64,000 nt of DNA. Origin: a bacterium. Its GTDB lineage: Bacteria; UBA8248. The position numbers were made by a program. This document shows, piece by piece, positions 35,401-44,400 of the stretch. Each line of letters begins with the position of its first letter. The first letter of the stretch is position 1. The DNA lies in the NCBI GenBank assembly GCA_965207065.1, contig OZ242260.1, positions 4,320,001 through 4,384,000 on the forward strand, written 5' to 3'.

Positions 35401-38400
35401 TATCGGAGGCGGGACACCTATGCTACGATGGATATAGCAGGGAGGAATTCTCCTCCCTCAAAGGGAAAAGGATCCCCTATGAAAACGCCTTCGTTTTTGG
35501 CACCCCTGGTTGAAGGAAACTCTTTGAAAAGACTGTTTCAAGGTTTTGCGGCAGGCGCAATTTGCACGGTGATCATCGGCTTTGGTTGGGGCGGATGGGT
35601 ACTCGGCAGCGCTGCTGAGAAAATGGTGGATACAGCAACCGAAACAGCCATGGTCGCGGCTTTGGCGCCCATCTGCGCCGATAAGTTTGAGCGGGCGGTT
35701 AATACCGATAACGGTTTGGTTCCTAAACTCGCAGCGGTCGATTCATGGGAACGGGGCAATCATTTGCTGAAAGCCGGCTGGGCAACTTCACCGGGCGGAG
35801 CAAAGCCGGACAACAATGTGGCGGAAGCGTGCGCCAACTTGCTCAACAAGACATTTAAACTGAAGTAGGTCGACAAAACCGGCATCTAGCGGAAACCGCC
35901 CCCCGTACGCCCCGGCCCTCGTGGGCCGGGGCGGCGCGTCTTCAGTTTTGCTTGGGGATGCCCTTGAAGGCGTGCTCGCCCCAGAGGTTCTTGAGCCTCT
36001 TGTCGCGGCCGCACCTGAAGCGATAGTAGCGGTAGCGGACCGAGTTATTCTGATAATAGTTCTGGTGATAATACTCGGCGGGGTAGAACGTGGCGGCGGC
36101 GAGTATCGGGGTGACGATCGGTTTGTCGAGCAACTTTTGCGCCGCTTTCTTCGAGGCCTCGGCCGCCTTGCGCTGCTTCTCGTTCAGGGCGAAGACGGCT
36201 GTTTTGTAGGAATCGCCCCGGTCGCAGAACTGGCCGCCGTCATCGGTCGGGTCGACCGAATGCCAGAAGGCGGTGAGCAGCGCATCGTAGCTTACCTTCG
36301 CCGGATCGTAGGTGATCTCGACCGCCTCGTAGTGACCCGTGTCGCCATAGGTGACTTGTTTGTAGGTCGGGTTTTTGGTCTTGCCGCCGGTATAGCCCGA
36401 AGTCGTCGAGACCACGCCCGGCACCTTGTCGAAATCAGACTCCACGCACCAGAAGCAGCCGCCGGCGAAAATCGCCTTCTCGAGCTTCTGTGCGCTTGCG
36501 GTGTGAGCGCAGAGTAAAAACACGGCGGCTACCAATAGCATGGTCCGTTTCATGATGTGTCTCCAAATTGTTGTGGTTCGACCCAGAAATAACTACTCAT
36601 CCGTATCGTCTGTCCCAAACGCAAACCGGCGTCGACTACGCTGCTTTCGTCAGCCGGCGAGTGGGGTCGCCCATGTGAAGTTCATCGATGGCGGCTATGA
36701 AAGTGTGAAAGGCAGGTAATCCACTGGATTCAGGACACCTATGCAACAGAAGTAATAGTAGCCTTACGCCACGCTTCAGATCAACGTCGCGCATAGCCCT
36801 GCCCGCTCAAAGTCGTCTCGAAGGCGAAGCTCTCTCCCTTGCGGACGTGTTCCCTGATTTGGTTCAACACCAGCCTGCCCGCCTGAAAACCGACCAGATG
36901 AGGCCCGGAAGGATTCAGTTTCGCCGCGATGATGTCCGCATTGATGAAAAGCGGGCAGTTCGCCTCATTCGGCAGAAATTCCGTGGCGAACGTCGTCTTT
37001 CCCGCGCCGTTCGGCCCGGCGATGATGTATATCCGCTTCTCGTCCGTATCCGCCAATGTCAGTCCGCTTCCTTGTAAATACCTTCATACGCAGCGGCGAT
37101 TTTCTCGTCATCCTCATTGTCTCCGCGCCCCGCTCGACATGCAAGGCCGGCCAAAAGCGCATCGGTCATCCCCTGTGGTATATATAACCGCCGAGGGGTT
37201 CATGCGCGGAAATTGTGAGCCTGTGAAAACACGCAAAATTTAGTGATTTCCCTGTAAAGACCGAACGAGGCTGCGATGAAAAAAACGGTTTTGTTGCTGA
37301 GTGTGTTCACGCTCGCCATCGTCATGAGTACACCCGCCTCAGGAGCCGAGCCACGAAAACGCCTCAAAGCGCGCGTCACCAAGGTGTACGACGGGGCGAG
37401 CTTTCAACTCGGCGGCGGCCTGCGCTCCGCCCTGATCGGCGTGGCCGCCCCCGCGCCCGGCGCGCCCGGCTCCGAGCAGGCCCATGCGCTCCTGAAGCGC
37501 CTCATCGAGAACAGGACCGTAACCCTCGAAATCGACGAAAAACCCGTGGACGGCTCCGGGCAGACGCTTTATTACGTTTTCCTGGAAGAAGGCGGCCTCG
37601 TGAACGCCCTCATGGTGCTGCGGGGGCTGGGCCGCGCCCTCGTGAAACACCCCAACGTGCGCTACCGCAAGGAGCTGATAGAGGCCGAAAACCTCGCCAA
37701 GCGATACCGCCGCGGCGTGTGGGGCAGCGAATTCGACCCGCGGGATCCGATAGACCGCTAAATTTCATACGGGCAGGTTTTCATACGGGCAGTCTCGGTG
37801 ACGCACCCGAATCCTGTGCAGCCGTTTTGAGAAGGAGTTGTTGACAAACCCCCTCGCGAGAAAAACGCCTGCGGCGCATTCACCTCCCTGACGCGCAATT
37901 CCTCCCTCGTCCCGGAAAGGCCCGAAAACCCGCGCTGAAGAATTCCTCCTTCCTCAGTCGGATTTCACCACTACCGTCATTCCGCCGAAAGCCGGAATGA
38001 CAATGCCTTTGCTCGGTCGATAAACAAGAATATAGCGGACAGGTCCCTGTGCCTGTCCTCTACGGACCCCTCTTCCCGGTTGGCCCCATTCGCCGATTCA
38101 TGAATTTCGGACTTTTCAACAATCCCCTCCTCACGCTTCCCTTCCTCAAAGGCGCGCCGTGGCGAGGTTCTTTACGGAATCTTTACGATCTTTACACAAT
38201 CTTTACATTCACTCGCAGCTTCCGCTGATACCATTTTCTTGCCCATTCGGGCCTCGCCGGACGTTCCTGGACGCGAAGGCGAGCCTGCCGCCGGTCTCGA
38301 AATTCCAAACCTGCCGCCTCCTTCCACATCCGCCGCCGCAACAACAGGAAGGGGAACAGACCATGAAAACAGAATGTGGCGACACATCCGACGACGAACC

Positions 38401-41400: not shown

Positions 41401-44400
41401 CCGGTTGGTGGCGGTGCGCTATCGCACGGTCGACGGGACGGCGCGGGCGGGGAGCGACTACACGGCGAGTTCGGGACACGTTTTCTTCCGTCCCGGGGTG
41501 ACGACGCGTACGGTGTCGATCCCGGTGCTCGACGACTCGCACGACGAAGGCAGCGAGACGATGCGCCTCGAGCTGTCTCAGGGGTCACATGCAGGCAGCC
41601 ATCGCTTGCGGATCGACGATGGCGAGGCGACGGGGACAATCACGAACACCGACCCGATGCCGAAGGCGTGGCTCGCGCGCTTCGGGCGCGAGGCGGCGGA
41701 GCACGTGACCGACGCGATTGCCGAGCGGCTGCGCGGCGCGCGCACGGGCGTTGTGCTGGGCGGGCAGAGCCTGGCGTTGGGCCGGGACCCTCTCCTCCCG
41801 GCGGACCCGAACGCCCGCCTCGCCTTGGGCGATTACGGAATCGGTAGAGATGGCGCAGGTAATGCTTTCGGCAGCCCAGGCGGCGTTTCGGGTGAGGACG
41901 CTGAAGCTAAGTGGCGCGAAATCGAGATGAGCGAGATGTTGCTCGCTAGTTCGTTCCACATGGCGTCCGCCGAGAAAATGGAGTCAGGACCACGCTGGTC
42001 GGTCTGGGGCCGGGGTGCGCGTTCGAACTTCCAGGGCGCAGAGGACAACCTCACGCTCGACGGCGAGGTGACGACGGCGACGCTGGGCGTGGACTATGAG
42101 CGCGACCGGTGGCTCGTCGGCGTGGCGCTTGCGCGAAGCGCGGGCGATGGTTCGTTCCGCACGAGCGGGGCGTGCACGACCGGCTGCGCGGGCGAGGTGG
42201 AGAGCACACTCATGGGCGTCTACCCCTACGCCCGCTACAGGGTGAGCGAGCGGCTCTCGCTCTGGGGCGCGCTCGGACAGGGGCAAGGCGATCTGACGCT
42301 CTCGCCAGAGGGCGCGCGGCACATCGAGACCGAGGTCGAGATGCGCATGGCGGCGGCGGGAGCGCGCGGCGTGCTCCTGCCCGCCTCCGTGACGGGCGGG
42401 TACGAACTCGCCCTGCGCGCGGACTTGCTCGTGACGCGGACGACCTCGGACGCGGCGGCTGGCCTCGCCGAGGCCGAAGCGGAGACAAGCCGCATCCGCG
42501 TGCTGCTCGAAGGCTCGCGCGCATTCAAGCTGGGAAGCGGTGTGCTCACGCCCTCGCTGGAAGTCGGCCTTCGCTACGACGGGGGCGACGCGGAGACGGG
42601 AAGCGGCCTCGAAGTCGGCGGCTCGATGCGCTATTCGTCAGGAAGCCTCTCGGTGGAGGTGAGCGCGAGCGGCCTCCTCGCCCACGCCGATAACGACTAT
42701 GAGGAATGGGGCGTGAGCGGCTCGGTGCTCTACGCGCCGGGCGCCGACGGGCGCGGGCTGTCCGTGCGCGTGGGCTCCGGCTGGGGAGCGGATTCGGGGA
42801 GCGCGGAGAACCTCTGGGCACAGCGATACGGCGGCATACCCACTGGCGTGTTCGACCCCGAAACGCGGCTCGACGCCGAGGTGGGCTACGGTTTCGACGC
42901 CAGGCGCGGCCTGCTCACGCCCTACGCGGGCGTGGCGATGTCGGATAGCGGAGAGATCTGGCGCGCGGGCGCGCGCTGGCGGATTGCGCACGCCTTCGAC
43001 GTGAGTTTGGAGGCCTCGCTCAAGGAGTCGGAATACGACGAAAAACCCGAAAGCGGCGTGCTGCTGCGCTGTTCGAGGCGGTGGTGATCCATCCTTCGAG
43101 GGGGGGGCCGCAAGGACAGGTCGCGACCTGTCCCTACAAGAAATGCGGTTGGCCTGCCGCATCAGAGAGGACGCATCGGCCCTCCCCTGGAAAAATCTTC
43201 CGTCGTTCCCGAGATGCGGGGACAGGCCCCGGCCTCGAAGAAGCACGGACTGACTCCCCCTCAAGGGGGGAGTGAACTTCAAAAGCATCCGCGCAACTCA
43301 AAATCGCTTCCAGAGGGTTTTTCAGCAGCCCCTCCTCGCTCGCGTTTGACACGCATTTCCCCGCATTTGCCGTATCCCTGCATTTTCGGAGATTCGGTAT
43401 CGTGCGCGCGGCGCGGGGGAAAGCGAACCCTCCTTCATCAGTCGGGTTCGACCTCTCGCGTTGGTCGGGCAAACCCTCGCTCGGGTTCGACCCCAAGGGA
43501 AAAGAGGCTTACCCATGGAATCAGGCATTCGGGAGAAATTGAAGACGGTGATAACTGCATTCTTCGCCGGAGCGGCCCGTCCATCTTCAGAAGAACACGG
43601 GCAGCCTCGTTCGAACTCCCCCGCTTCGGGGATTTTCGATACCCTCTACAAAAGCGCACACCTGCTCTCCTTACTCCGGTTCGATAATCTCGAAGAGAGG
43701 AACTGCACGGATGGATTCGAGGAAGGCGCAGAAATGAAAATAATCATATTTCCCGTAAATATAGATAAATTCACGGGGTTTTTCGATAAATTCCTGAAAG
43801 GGATGCGCCCTGTAAATGATTGTATTCGAAAGAGTTACCATACAAATCTGAGCGATGAACATTCAGATACGGCGATAAAAATAGTTTCCGGGTTCCCCCG
43901 CATTTGCCCGCAACCGCCCGCATTTCCTCTTGCCCCACATTACGCCGCAAACCCTCCCTCCTCGGTCGGGTTTGACCCCCGCATTTGCCCGCAATTGCGC
44001 GCTTAAGCGTCGCCGCCTTCTATCTCTCCTTTGGGCGCGTCGTCCACGCTCGCCTCGATGAAGGGTCTGATCAGGTCGAGCGGCAAGGGGAAGACGATGG
44101 TGGAGTTGTTCTCGGTGGCGACTTCGGAAAGCGTCTGCAGGAAGCGAAGCTGGAGCGCGCCCGGGGCCGTGGCGATGGTGGTGGCGGCCTGGGCCAGCCG
44201 CTCGCTCGCCTGGTATTCGCCCTCCGCGTGAATGACCTTGGCGCGACGCTCACGCTCGGCCTCGGCCTGGCGGGCGATGGCGCGCTGCATCTCGTGGGGA
44301 AGGTCCACGTGCTTGAGCTCCACGTTGGTGACCTTGATGCCCCACGGGTCGGTGGCGTGATCGAGGAGTTCCTGGAGCTGGGAGTTGATCTTCTCGCGCT

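What a model noticed while it worked through the whole genome (the two positions that open the first line are those of the whole stretch)
38363..43087. An animal-type SRCR domain in a surface protein, found only in this genome among 31 class genomes searched
A 1,574-aa protein with a signal peptide, Cadherin-like and Calx-beta domains and a weak, below-cut-off match to a C-terminal outer-membrane beta-barrel domain carries one complete scavenger-receptor cysteine-rich (SRCR) domain. Its nearest named relatives are animal SRCR proteins, including those of sponges. It looks like a eukaryote-derived domain adopted by the symbiont for display on its surface.
Evidence so far: - Pfam SRCR: E = 1.4e-26, profile positions 1-100 of 100, together with Cadherin-like and Calx-beta matches and an OMP_b-brl match below its cut-off (27.0 against 28.7 bits). 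- The family search finds one SRCR match in this genome, none in 30 other genomes of the class and none in 14 control genomes. - For residues 630-760, every named hit among the best 120 is an animal protein (echinoderm, mollusc and sponge DMBT1-like or SRCR proteins) at 40-55% identity. - GC content of the SRCR segment is 65.1%, against 66.6% for the whole gene. The frame is continuous and there is an N-terminal signal sequence. - In the listings of two literature searches (titles and abstracts only) I saw no report of [...]
(Added by a program. Inside this text positions count along the whole contig: contig position 4,320,001 is position 1 of the stretch shown here. "Call 12" and the like, gene names such as g00115 and contig names such as C1 are that model's own, and its searches are not shown. 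The text may have been shortened before it was handed on; [...] marks where a part breaks off. The agent that wrote the report below was given it as the finding of a first reader that could run no searches.)

Follow-up and report, generated by a model that had tools for sequence, protein, structure and literature searches.

The report
Bacterial autotransporter displaying an SRCR domain
A sponge-associated bacterium encodes an outer-membrane autotransporter predicted to put an animal-type scavenger-receptor (SRCR) domain on its surface, and related SRCR proteins turn up in bacteria from several other phyla.

Summary
The 1,574-aa ORF (38363..43087, +) is real. It carries one complete SRCR domain (Pfam E 1.4e-26) with all six core cysteines. 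The acidic cation-site positions appear conserved.

The last 475 residues form an autotransporter translocator, so surface display is supported:
- Pfam PF03797 scores 35.7 bits in the translated genome search.
- 4 of 9 relatives of this C-terminal domain match PF03797.
- The 11 best PDB fold matches to the model are all autotransporter beta-domains.
- BamA is present in the genome.

The claim that the domain occurs only in this genome is wrong:
- 6 of 51 genomes of the phylum carry SRCR, all in the window's genus.
- A scan of bacterial and archaeal species genomes returned 46 loci. Their titles name at least seven other bacterial phyla, and five name the sponge-symbiont bin series SB06xx.
- A sample of one order gave only 2 of 301 genomes.

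The all-animal hit list comes from ranking by score summed over many domains. The nearest relatives of this domain are bacterial (89%, 67% and 61-63% identity, against 56% for the best animal domain), and it sits in an all-bacterial clade. The donor is therefore the symbiont gene pool, not directly an animal.

Eight literature searches found no report of bacterial SRCR proteins. I rate it a new variant of a known kind (eukaryote-like symbiont proteins).

The parts
38363..43087 (+). Whole gene: 1,574-aa SRCR-bearing autotransporter-like surface protein (stop codon at 43085-43087)
   Evidence: The frame is open. An RBS-like GGAAGGGG lies upstream of the ATG. Another strain's contig keeps the same RBS and ATG (table 7, X14 at 38379).
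38363..38542 (+). N-terminal extension (residues 1-32) plus a Sec-type signal peptide (residues about 33-60; A58-T59-A60 before E61)
   Evidence: Read from the translation. No predictor was run, so this is inference.
38957..39238 (+). Cadherin-like beta-sandwich domain 1 (residues 199-292)
   Evidence: Pfam PF12733, E 8.2e-17 on the sub-segment. It is a direct DNA repeat with copy 2.
39590..39952 (+). Calx-beta-like domain 1 (residues 410-530), below the Pfam cut-off when scanned alone
   Evidence: PF03160 scores 24.5 bits against a cut-off of 27 on the sub-segment. It counts as one of 2 stretches.
39971..40267 (+). Cadherin-like beta-sandwich domain 2 (residues 537-635)
   Evidence: Pfam PF12733, best stretch 537-635.
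40292..40606 (+). SRCR domain (residues 644-748). It has six cysteines (C666, C679, C714, C724, C737, C747) and no C1/C4 pair, so it is group A type.
   Evidence: PF00530 E 1.4e-26, positions 1-100 of 100. The translated genome search gives E 5e-28. Solved SRCR chains match down to 8.9e-35.
40619..41302 (+). Passenger module of unknown family (residues 753-980). It is absent from the G027 orthologue and present in paralogues of other genus members at 32-40% identity.
   Evidence: No Pfam match. The DNA alignment skips it.
41324..41650 (+). Calx-beta domain 2 (residues 988-1096)
   Evidence: PF03160, best stretch 988-1096. NCX1 Calx-beta chains match in PDB.
41663..41731 (+). Predicted alpha-helical linker (residues 1101-1123) ahead of the barrel
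   Evidence: AlphaFold model helix 2-24, block pLDDT 92-93.
41993..43078 (+). C-terminal outer-membrane beta-barrel, an autotransporter translocator (residues about 1211-1572). The protein ends in ...RRW.
   Evidence: PF03797 at window 42002-42604, 35.7 bits against a cut-off of 26. OMP_b-brl scores 32.1 against 28.7 on the domain alone. 4 of 9 family members match PF03797. The 11 best Foldseek matches are autotransporter beta-domains.

Best explanation
The gene encodes a type V (autotransporter-like) surface protein.

Proposed route, step by step:
1. A Sec signal takes the protein to the periplasm (read from the sequence).
2. The C-terminal 475 residues form a helix-plugged outer-membrane beta-barrel, inserted with the help of BamA (family and fold shown; the process is inferred).
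3. The roughly 1,040-residue passenger is exported to the cell surface (inferred).

The passenger is a string of calcium-associated beta-sandwich modules (Cadherin-like x2, Calx-beta x2, one unknown module) with one group-A-type SRCR domain. The SRCR domain keeps the six core cysteines. It also keeps the acidic Asp/Asn/Glu positions that bind cations and ligands in animal SRCR domains.

It most likely works as a calcium-dependent binding module. It would attach the bacterium to polyanionic or glycoprotein ligands of the sponge host, or mimic or compete with the host's own SRCR receptors (function inferred).

The gene is one accessory member of a very large family of autotransporters with shuffled passengers in this genus. 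Its SRCR module comes from a pool of bacterial SRCR domains shared among sponge-associated bacteria of several phyla. That pool probably derives ultimately from an animal.
For: SRCR identity:
-.
- The six core cysteines are conserved in at least 88 of 90 bacterial domains.
- The seven mapped cation-site columns (sites 1-3) keep the query's residue in 59-87 of 90 bacterial domains. The figures are 32-76 of 148 for sponge domains and 613-1,260 of 1,508 for other animal domains.
- Residue roles come from passages of PMC7043408.

Autotransporter:
- PF03797 scores 35.7 bits in this gene.
- 4 of 9 aligned C-terminal relatives match PF03797, best E 8.7e-14.
- The model has an N-terminal helix followed by an all-beta region.
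- Foldseek ranks 1-11 are Hbp, BrkA, NalP, EstA, EspP and AIDA-I beta-domains, E 7e-9 to 2e-7, TM-score on the target up to 0.79.
- BamA is present, E 8.5e-53.
- The terminal residue is W.

Family context:
- 19 of 23 genus genomes match the barrel part, with up to 25 matches per genome.
- Three paralogues lie in the window's own genome.
- In G021, G027 and G035 the SRCR matches and the barrel matches report open frames of the same length at neighbouring coordinates.

Bacterial pool:
- 46 loci yielded 90 non-redundant domains.
- 79 of 90 score higher against another bacterial locus than against any of 1,877 domains cut from the animal-dominated hit proteins.
- The query lies in all-bacterial clades with support 97 and 94.
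- The Entotheonella protein is collinear: SRCR 57%, Calx-beta plus barrel 41%.
- A Binatia protein has SRCR x2, Calx-beta and a PF03797 barrel.

Not an assembly artefact:
- The gene lies in a 4.48-Mb single contig.
- Contigs from runs of four studies cover it at about 95-98% identity, and two of them span the SRCR domain through to the barrel.
- The G027 orthologue is syntenic.

Sponge association:
- 5 of the 10 studies whose runs hold the gene are labelled sponge metagenome.
Against: - No experiment or RNA evidence exists.
- hmmscan of the whole protein did not list PF03797; only the translated genome search did.
- The barrel model is of middling confidence: mean pLDDT 67.3, with residues 27-109 and 362-413 poor. 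It shows about 18 strands, whereas the matched autotransporter barrels align over only 262-319 columns. The barrel size and subtype are therefore open.
- Recalled, not tested here: autotransporter passengers tolerate few cysteines, and disulphide-bonded loops formed in the periplasm can block export. An SRCR domain with three disulphides, two of them spanning 68-71 residues, is an awkward passenger.
- The ligand is unknown.
- The mapping of cation-site residues rests on spacing and on alignments to CD163. I had no DMBT1 alignment in hand.
- Some cross-phylum near-identities lie on short contigs and may be binning errors.
Confidence: 0.72

Rival explanations
1. This lineage acquired an SRCR exon or domain directly and recently from its sponge host (or another animal).
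For: - The SRCR family is overwhelmingly animal.
- Named top hits are animal proteins, sponge ones among them, at 40-57% identity.
- The gene sits in a variable region. Four other genus genomes (G031, G026, G025, G020) keep the flanks but lack the gene, and four more (G030, G035, G017, G032) keep only the upstream flank.
Against: - The best match among the 1,877 comparison domains is 56% (123 bits). An Alphaproteobacteria chromosome gives 67% (165 bits), and Entotheonella and Chloroflexota MAGs give 61-63%.
- The query sits in all-bacterial clades.
- GC and GC3 of the segment match the rest of the gene.
- No sponge domain among the 148 sampled is its nearest neighbour.
- Caveat: the host's own SRCR repertoire was not available, and the sponge sample is small.
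Confidence: 0.08
2. The SRCR segment is host DNA joined to a bacterial gene by mis-assembly or contamination.
For: Sponge metagenomes contain very many host SRCR genes (PMC4772301, passages).
Against: - The reading frame is continuous, inside a 4.48-Mb contig.
- There is no compositional break.
- Contigs of X14 and X17 each span 40031-43087, and a contig of X4 spans 40031-42367.
- An 89%-identical SRCR lies in the syntenic orthologue of G027.
- The same architecture occurs on complete chromosomes of other phyla.
Confidence: 0.01
3. The passenger is cleaved off and released. The SRCR protein would then act as a soluble decoy or agglutinin in the sponge mesohyl rather than as a tethered adhesin.
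For: Several of the structurally matched autotransporters (EspP, Hbp, NalP) release their passengers (known biology, recalled). The model has a long low-confidence stretch (residues 27-109) between the helix and the barrel.
Against: No cleavage motif or protease domain was identified. Other matched relatives, such as EstA, stay attached (recalled). Nothing here tells the two apart.
Confidence: 0.15
4. The SRCR domain is only a structural spacer, one more beta-rich module in a shuffled stalk, and has no specific ligand.
For: The passengers of this family are mosaics of many module types. SRCR is absent from most paralogues.
Against: - The SRCR domain is the best-conserved part between phyla: 57-67% against 41-43% for the barrel.
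- The ligand- and cation-site columns are kept in 59-87 of 90 bacterial domains, a higher share than in the sponge sample.
- Both points argue for selection on binding.
Confidence: 0.08

Closest known systems
Animal SRCR-superfamily domains (neurotrypsin, CD163, MSR1/SCARA5, Mac-2 binding protein, DMBT1/SALSA, MARCO)
   Same: - Full-length match to PF00530.
- E 8.9e-35 to 1.5e-22 against solved SRCR chains.
- The six core cysteines and the acidic cation-site positions are kept.
- 40-57% identity.
   Different: - It is encoded in a bacterial chromosome as a single copy inside an autotransporter passenger.
- It has two short loop insertions (4 and 3 residues) relative to CD163 domains.
- It has no C1-C4 pair, so it is not group B.
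- Its partners are Cadherin-like and Calx-beta modules and an outer-membrane barrel, not collagenous, CUB/ZP or protease domains.
Classical (type Va) autotransporters: Hbp, BrkA, NalP, EstA, EspP, AIDA-I
   Same: - N-terminal signal, long passenger, linker helix and C-terminal barrel ending in an aromatic residue.
- PF03797 match.
- Best fold matches.
- BamA in the genome.
   Different: - Sequence identity to the solved barrels is only 12-16%, and a profile of the family finds no PDB chain by sequence.
- The barrel region is about 360 residues, with about 18 modelled strands.
- The passenger is made of beta-sandwich modules with disulphide-rich SRCR, not a beta-helix.
- No Pfam ESPR match.
Eukaryote-like proteins of sponge symbionts (ankyrin, LRR, TPR, fibronectin III and cadherin classes)
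   Same: - A domain typical of animals, encoded by sponge-associated bacteria of many phyla.
- It often sits in the same proteins as fn3, cadherin and LRR modules.
- Host interaction is the presumed role.
   Different: - In the eight literature searches SRCR appears only as a host receptor family, never as a symbiont protein. I saw listings and abstracts, plus passages of PMC4772301 and PMC10855680.
SRCR, Calx-beta, barrel proteins of other MAGs (Entotheonella L017, Alphaproteobacteria L016, Binatia L020, and G027 of the same genus, L015)
   Same: - The modules lie in the same order: SRCR, Calx-beta, linker, barrel.
- SRCR identity is 57-89% and barrel identity 41-91%.
   Different: - The query has an extra 228-residue module between SRCR and Calx-beta.
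- Its N-terminal part differs from all of them except G027.
- L016 is part of a 7,361-aa open frame.

Membership tests
SRCR domain (Pfam PF00530) | Full-length profile match above the curated cut-off | tested here: met
   93.2 bits against a cut-off of 26.1, positions 1-100 of 100. 99.3 bits in the translated search.
SRCR domain (Pfam PF00530) | Six core cysteines (C2, C3, C5, C6, C7, C8) | tested here: met
   C666, C679, C714, C724, C737 and C747 fall in columns that are Cys in 1,467-1,506 of 1,508 animal domains and 88-90 of 90 bacterial domains.
SRCR group B | Extra C1-C4 cysteine pair | tested here: not met
   The query has H and F at those columns. 0 of 90 bacterial domains have both cysteines. 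The domain is therefore group A type.
SRCR domain (functional site) | Acidic cluster that binds cations and ligands (DMBT1 SRCR8 sites 2 and 3: D1019, D1020, E1086, D1058, D1059, N1081) | tested here: inconclusive
   D667, D668, D710, D711, N736 and E741 match by residue type and spacing, once the two loop insertions seen against CD163 are allowed for. No direct alignment to DMBT1 was in hand, and no binding test exists.
SRCR domain | SRCR fold with three disulphides | not tested
   The SRCR segment was not folded. Sequence matches to solved SRCR structures make the fold very likely.
Type Va autotransporter | C-terminal Autotransporter beta-domain (PF03797) | tested here: met
   35.7 bits against a cut-off of 26 at window 42002-42604. 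4 of 9 aligned relatives match, best E 8.7e-14. hmmscan of this protein itself listed only OMP_b-brl.
Type Va autotransporter | Beta-barrel fold like solved translocator domains, with a helix ahead of it | tested here: met
   Foldseek ranks 1-11 are all autotransporter beta-domains. The model has helix 2-24 at pLDDT above 90. Overall model confidence is moderate (67.3).
Type Va autotransporter | 12-stranded barrel | tested here: inconclusive
   The model has 12 confident strands (112-358) and about 6 more of lower confidence. No coordinates were inspected.
Type Va autotransporter | N-terminal Sec signal peptide | tested here: inconclusive
   Basic, hydrophobic and A-x-A regions were read by eye at residues 33-60, after a 32-residue extension. 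No predictor was available.
Type Va autotransporter | Host cell is diderm with the BAM machinery | tested here: met
   Omp85/BamA match at E 8.5e-53 in an 801-aa frame.
Type Va autotransporter | Passenger actually exported to the surface | not testable with these tools
   This needs expression and a surface-accessibility assay.
Eukaryote-like proteins of sponge symbionts | Organism is sponge-associated | tested here: met
   Runs of 10 studies hold the gene, and 5 of those studies are labelled sponge metagenome. Contigs of two such runs cover it at about 95-97% identity.
Eukaryote-like proteins of sponge symbionts | Domain mainly eukaryotic and rare in bacteria at large | tested here: met
   0 of 14 control genomes. 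2 of 301 genomes of one order sample. 34,211 representative proteins match, and the top ranks are dominated by multi-SRCR proteins like the animal hits (that library carries no names).

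The most novel reading that the evidence does not exclude
Sponge symbionts of many phyla share, by horizontal transfer, a surface-displayed copy of the domain that is among the most expanded receptor families in sponge genomes. These bacterial SRCR domains would act as molecular mimics or decoys. Displayed on autotransporters and giant adhesins, they would bind the same calcium-dependent ligands as host SRCR receptors, or host factors that recognise SRCR. 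The cell would then be marked as 'self', or spared from phagocytosis. On this reading SRCR is a previously unrecognised class of symbiosis factor and a marker of the sponge-associated lifestyle.
Probability: 0.2. Interest if true: 0.85.

Novelty: new variant of a known kind. Interest (0 to 1): 0.62.

Why it matters
Sponges discriminate between symbionts and food bacteria. SRCR receptors are among their most expanded gene families (PMC4772301, passages). How symbionts escape recognition is still open.

Finding the same domain on the predicted surface of the symbionts gives that question a concrete, testable candidate. The ligand-site positions appear conserved, and the domain is shared across several phyla.

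It also shows that a disulphide-rich animal domain can be a passenger of a type V secretion system. That bears on the rules of autotransporter export. Finally, it adds SRCR to the catalogue of eukaryote-like domains used to recognise host-associated bacteria in metagenomes.

Tried and rejected
- Expression: no RNA holder is listed among the 24 runs returned, so nothing can be said about it.
- A profile of the nine C-terminal domains found no PDB chain by sequence at E <= 1, apart from three chance-level ephrin-receptor rows. The fold search was needed instead.
- NCBIfam gave only a Calx-beta-level match to NCX1.
- The representative-library search and both word-index searches rank by score summed over domains. 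They could not show the nearest single-domain relatives.
- The FastTree tree suggested that bacterial SRCR domains are polyphyletic: 15 changes, with at least 4 forced by starred branches. I do not rely on this. With 105 columns most forks are open, and the AU test does not reject one bacterial clade (p 0.821). The constrained tree is even 43.85 log-likelihood units better than the quick free tree (after two unfinished runs).
- Foliamicus rows join the query clade in the IQ-TREE tree but not in the FastTree tree. Their place is unsettled.
- Before the second tree I dropped 5 long-branch rows, all rows at least 75% identical to a kept row, and all but 45 of the 96 remaining non-sponge animal rows. 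Unnamed proteins (221 domains) were left out of both trees.
- Five duplicate loci (L005, L007, L008, L012, L014) were dropped before counting domains.
- The archaeal locus L058 has only two partial matches of about 45 residues and is not counted as an SRCR domain.
I repeated it through a genome handle, as the tool advised.
- Gene GC is 66.6% against 59.5% for the genome. This is not an outlier: 12.5% of 816 long open frames are as GC-rich. It is no evidence of foreign origin.
- Searching papers for MAG bin names gave only indirect support: the SB06xx bin series appears in a table under the sponge-associated Entoporibacteria (PMC7883664, passages). I could not check the habitat of the other MAG series. 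From memory, the Myxococcales, Bradymonadia and '3_bin.88' loci may not be from sponges.

Full report
**1. The observation**

The window has an open frame from the ATG at 38363 to the stop at 43085-43087, giving 1,574 aa. GGAAGGGG lies just upstream of the ATG.
- SRCR: E 1.4e-26, profile positions 1-100 of 100, residues 644-748.
- Cadherin-like: two stretches.
- Calx-beta: two stretches.
- OMP_b-brl: 27.0 bits against a cut-off of 28.7.

GC is 65.1% for the SRCR segment and 66.6% for the gene. The genome mean is 59.5%, but 12.5% of 816 long open frames are at least as GC-rich as this gene, so composition says nothing about origin. The domain matches solved animal SRCR structures at E 8.9e-35 (neurotrypsin) to 1.5e-22 (MARCO).

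**2. The SRCR domain looks functional**

The domain has six cysteines: C666, C679, C714, C724, C737 and C747. They fall in the columns that are cysteine in 88-90 of 90 bacterial domains and 1,467-1,506 of 1,508 animal domains. It lacks the extra C1-C4 pair of group B, and so do all the bacterial domains (0 of 90 have both).

Passages of PMC7043408 describe the cation sites of DMBT1 SRCR8:
- D1019, D1020 and E1086 hold the cation of site 2.
- D1020, D1058, D1059 and N1081 hold the cation of site 3.
- Mutating D1019 or D1020 abolishes binding of all ligands tested.

By residue type and spacing, D667, D668, D710, D711, N736 and E741 of this protein correspond to those six residues. This allows for the 4- and 3-residue loop insertions seen against CD163. 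The mapping is inferred, because I had no DMBT1 alignment in hand.

These columns, together with one mapped site-1 column, keep the query's residue in 59-87 of 90 bacterial domains. That share is higher than in my sponge sample (32-76 of 148).

**3. The C-terminus is an autotransporter translocator**

The last 475 residues are a conserved module. It is found in three paralogues in the same genome, one of them in this window at 19815-22784. It is also found in the SRCR proteins of a same-genus genome (G027), an Entotheonella MAG, an Alphaproteobacteria MAG and a Binatia MAG.

Evidence that this module is an autotransporter beta-domain:
- Of nine aligned members, 4 match Pfam Autotransporter PF03797 (best E 8.7e-14) and 3 match OMP_b-brl. 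The query's domain alone scores 32.1 bits, above the 28.7 cut-off.
- The translated genome search puts a PF03797 match inside this gene (window 42002-42604, 35.7 bits against a cut-off of 26). hmmscan of the protein did not list it.
- An AlphaFold model built on the nine-row alignment (mean pLDDT 67.3, pTM 0.60) has a confident N-terminal helix, a poorly modelled stretch and then an all-beta region.
- The 11 best Foldseek matches in the PDB are all autotransporter beta-domains: Hbp, BrkA, NalP, EstA, EspP and AIDA-I (E 7e-9 to 2e-7, TM-score on the target 0.31-0.79).
- The genome encodes BamA.
- The protein ends in W.
- Residues 33-60 read as a Sec signal (RRGGRLK, a hydrophobic run, A-T-A) after a 32-residue extension. 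This was read by eye.

Display of the passenger on the surface is therefore well supported as a prediction. The strand number is open: the model shows about 18 strands, six of them of lower confidence.

**4. The gene is not unique**

A Pfam SRCR search of all 51 genomes held for the phylum finds matches over the cut-off in 6, G000 included. Five are among the 22 other members of the window's genus, and none are among the 28 genomes of other genera. Several of these genomes carry more than one copy (G027 three, G035 six matches).

A peptide-pattern scan of one genome per bacterial and archaeal species returned 46 loci (53 confirmed of 312 candidate stretches). All 46 are MAGs. Their titles name these groups:
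- Alphaproteobacteria, Rhodospirillaceae, Paracoccaceae
- Gammaproteobacteria, Pseudomonadales, Azotimanducaceae, Foliamicus
- Dehalococcoidia, Chloroflexota, Caldilineaceae
- Entotheonella
- Binatia
- Bdellovibrionales
- Acidimicrobiales
- Myxococcales, Bradymonadia
- Dadabacteria
- one Nitrosopumilaceae archaeon, with partial matches only

The scan is not exhaustive. SRCR is nevertheless rare in bacteria at large: 0 of 14 control genomes, and 2 of 301 genomes sampled evenly from the order of one positive MAG, that MAG included.

**5. Nearest relatives and origin**

I cut 90 non-redundant SRCR domains from the bacterial loci. From the 240 proteins returned I cut 1,877 domains: 1,508 from named non-sponge animals, 148 from sponges and 221 from unnamed proteins.

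- 79 of the 90 bacterial domains score higher against a domain from another bacterial locus than against any of the 1,877.
- The query's domain is 89% identical to G027's and 67% to that of an Alphaproteobacteria chromosome. It is 61-63% identical to those of Entotheonella and Chloroflexota MAGs. Its best match among the 1,877 is 56%, a neurotrypsin domain.
- In a FastTree tree of 256 rows the query lies in a clade of 10 rows, all bacterial, with support 97.
- In an IQ-TREE quick tree of 126 rows it lies in an all-bacterial set of 9 rows with SH-aLRT 94.
- With only 105 columns the deeper forks are unresolved.
- An AU test does not reject a single clade of all 47 bacterial rows (p 0.821). The constrained tree is 43.85 log-likelihood units better than the free quick tree.

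The immediate source of this SRCR is therefore the bacterial pool. Neither the number of transfers from animals nor their direction can be read from these unrooted, short-alignment trees.

The all-animal top-120 lists and the top-150 list of the unnamed representative library, whose rows have up to 40 matched stretches, follow from ranking by score summed over many SRCR copies per protein.

**6. Architecture and gene family**

Pfam scans of 28 SRCR-bearing bacterial frames were run at E <= 1e-5. One of the 28 lacks a Pfam SRCR match at that threshold. They show bacterial-style giant surface proteins:
- Calx-beta in 9
- Cadherin-like in 8
- fn3 in 8
- LRR in 7
- also SWM repeats, Big_9 and PPC
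- PF03797 in the Binatia protein

The Entotheonella protein is collinear with the query: SRCR at 57% identity, then Calx-beta, linker and barrel at 41%.

Within the genus the barrel family is greatly expanded. 19 of 23 genomes match it, with up to 25 matches per genome. The passengers are mosaics.

Only G027 has a true orthologue (82-93% identity). It lies at the syntenic place. It has one more Cadherin-like unit and lacks the query's residues 758-981.

Four other genus genomes (G031, G026, G025, G020) keep both flanks but carry 4.4-10.9 kb of other genes there, with no homologue of this protein. Four more (G030, G035, G017, G032) matched only the upstream flank. The gene is thus accessory and sits in a variable region.

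Across phyla the SRCR module is better conserved (57-67%) than the barrel (41-43%). The barrel's closest relatives are genus paralogues (53-63%). This fits shuffling at the level of modules, or stronger constraint on SRCR.

**7. Habitat and assembly check**

Twenty public runs from 10 studies hold the gene or close variants. Five of those studies are labelled sponge metagenome. No holder is on record as RNA.

Contigs from four runs of four studies cover the whole gene at about 95-98% identity. Two of them, both sponge metagenomes, have single contigs spanning 40031-43087, that is, from the SRCR domain through to the barrel. Contigs break at 39002-39028 and 40031-40057, which coincide with the internal Cadherin-like repeat. 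Together with the 4.48-Mb single contig, this rules out a host-bacterium chimera.

**8. Mechanism (shown and inferred)**

Shown:
- the domain identities
- conservation of the cysteines and of the columns that I map to the cation sites
- the barrel family and fold
- BamA in the genome
- the distribution across genomes

Inferred:
- Sec export, BAM-assisted barrel insertion and passenger display
- calcium-dependent binding by SRCR to host or polyanionic ligands
- adhesion or mimicry of host SRCR receptors

One unresolved difficulty is recalled, not tested here. Disulphide-bonded domains are poor autotransporter passengers, so the timing of SRCR folding relative to export needs explaining.

**9. 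Comparison with what is known, and novelty**

The protein works like a classical autotransporter adhesin and meets most of the membership features I could test. Strand number and actual export remain open.

The SRCR domain is a regular group-A-type member of PF00530.

As a phenomenon it belongs with the eukaryote-like proteins of sponge symbionts. Eight full-text searches returned no paper describing SRCR domains in bacterial or symbiont proteins. In the papers I opened (passages of PMC4772301 and PMC10855680) SRCR is treated only as a host family. Papers outside the held library, and supplementary tables, were not seen.

I rate it a new variant of a known kind. The wider pattern that replaces it is more interesting than a single orphan gene: a shared SRCR module in surface proteins, displayed in several cases on autotransporters, across sponge-associated phyla.

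Noticed in passing
window 19815-22784 (+): A 989-aa paralogous autotransporter lies 15.6 kb upstream. It has two SWM repeats, a weak Big_5 match and a PF03797 barrel, which is 44% identical to the query's barrel.
   Followed up: partly
genus genomes G025, G026, G027, G035: The barrel family is greatly expanded in some genus members (15-25 matches per genome) and not found in four: G022, G024, G028 and G034. The passengers are mosaic.
   Followed up: partly
window 37776-43700, against L082-L085: The interval between the SNase-like gene and the NfeD-side flank is a variable region. G031, G026, G025 and G020 hold 4.4-10.9 kb of unrelated open frames there. I did not look at what they encode.
   Followed up: partly
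L059 3418-8628 and 8632-9978 (G027:C4, about 3420161-3424126): In G027 a second SRCR protein (fn3, Cadherin, Calx-beta, SRCR) is separated from its barrel by a single in-frame TGA. It could be a pseudogene, a sequencing error or read-through.
   Followed up: no
L042 against L045, L041 against L029, L027 against L030: SRCR domains are 92-98% identical between MAGs labelled as different phyla or classes (Gammaproteobacteria and Acidimicrobiales; Rhodospirillaceae and Pseudomonadales; Caldilineaceae and Gammaproteobacteria). Several lie on short contigs of 5.5-23 kb. This means either very recent transfer or mis-binning.
   Followed up: no
L018 (G054:C1, around 890534) and L016 (G052:C1, around 4581834): SRCR sits inside giant open frames. 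One is 5,785 aa in a Dehalococcoidia chromosome; the 2,712-aa stretch scanned holds 15 Calx-beta stretches. The other is 7,361 aa in an Alphaproteobacteria chromosome. No barrel match was found in the Dehalococcoidia frames.
   Followed up: no
L052, L049, L054: Myxococcales, Bradymonadia and one unclassified MAG have multi-SRCR proteins (up to 6 copies) with MopE-type metal-binding motifs and DUF7107. In the FastTree tree they form a group of their own with a few animal rows. From memory, these MAGs may not be from sponges.
   Followed up: no
window 38932-39222 and 39961-40254: The two Cadherin-like units are a direct DNA repeat spaced 1,029-1,032 bp apart (75-89% identity). Contigs of other assemblies break there, and G027 has a third unit.
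   Followed up: yes
window 38363-38458 (residues 1-32): A 32-residue acidic and polar extension precedes the signal peptide, and T-R-R-G-G-R-L-K loosely resembles a twin-arginine motif. In one sponge-metagenome contig the letters right after the ATG differ (table 7, X14).
   Followed up: no
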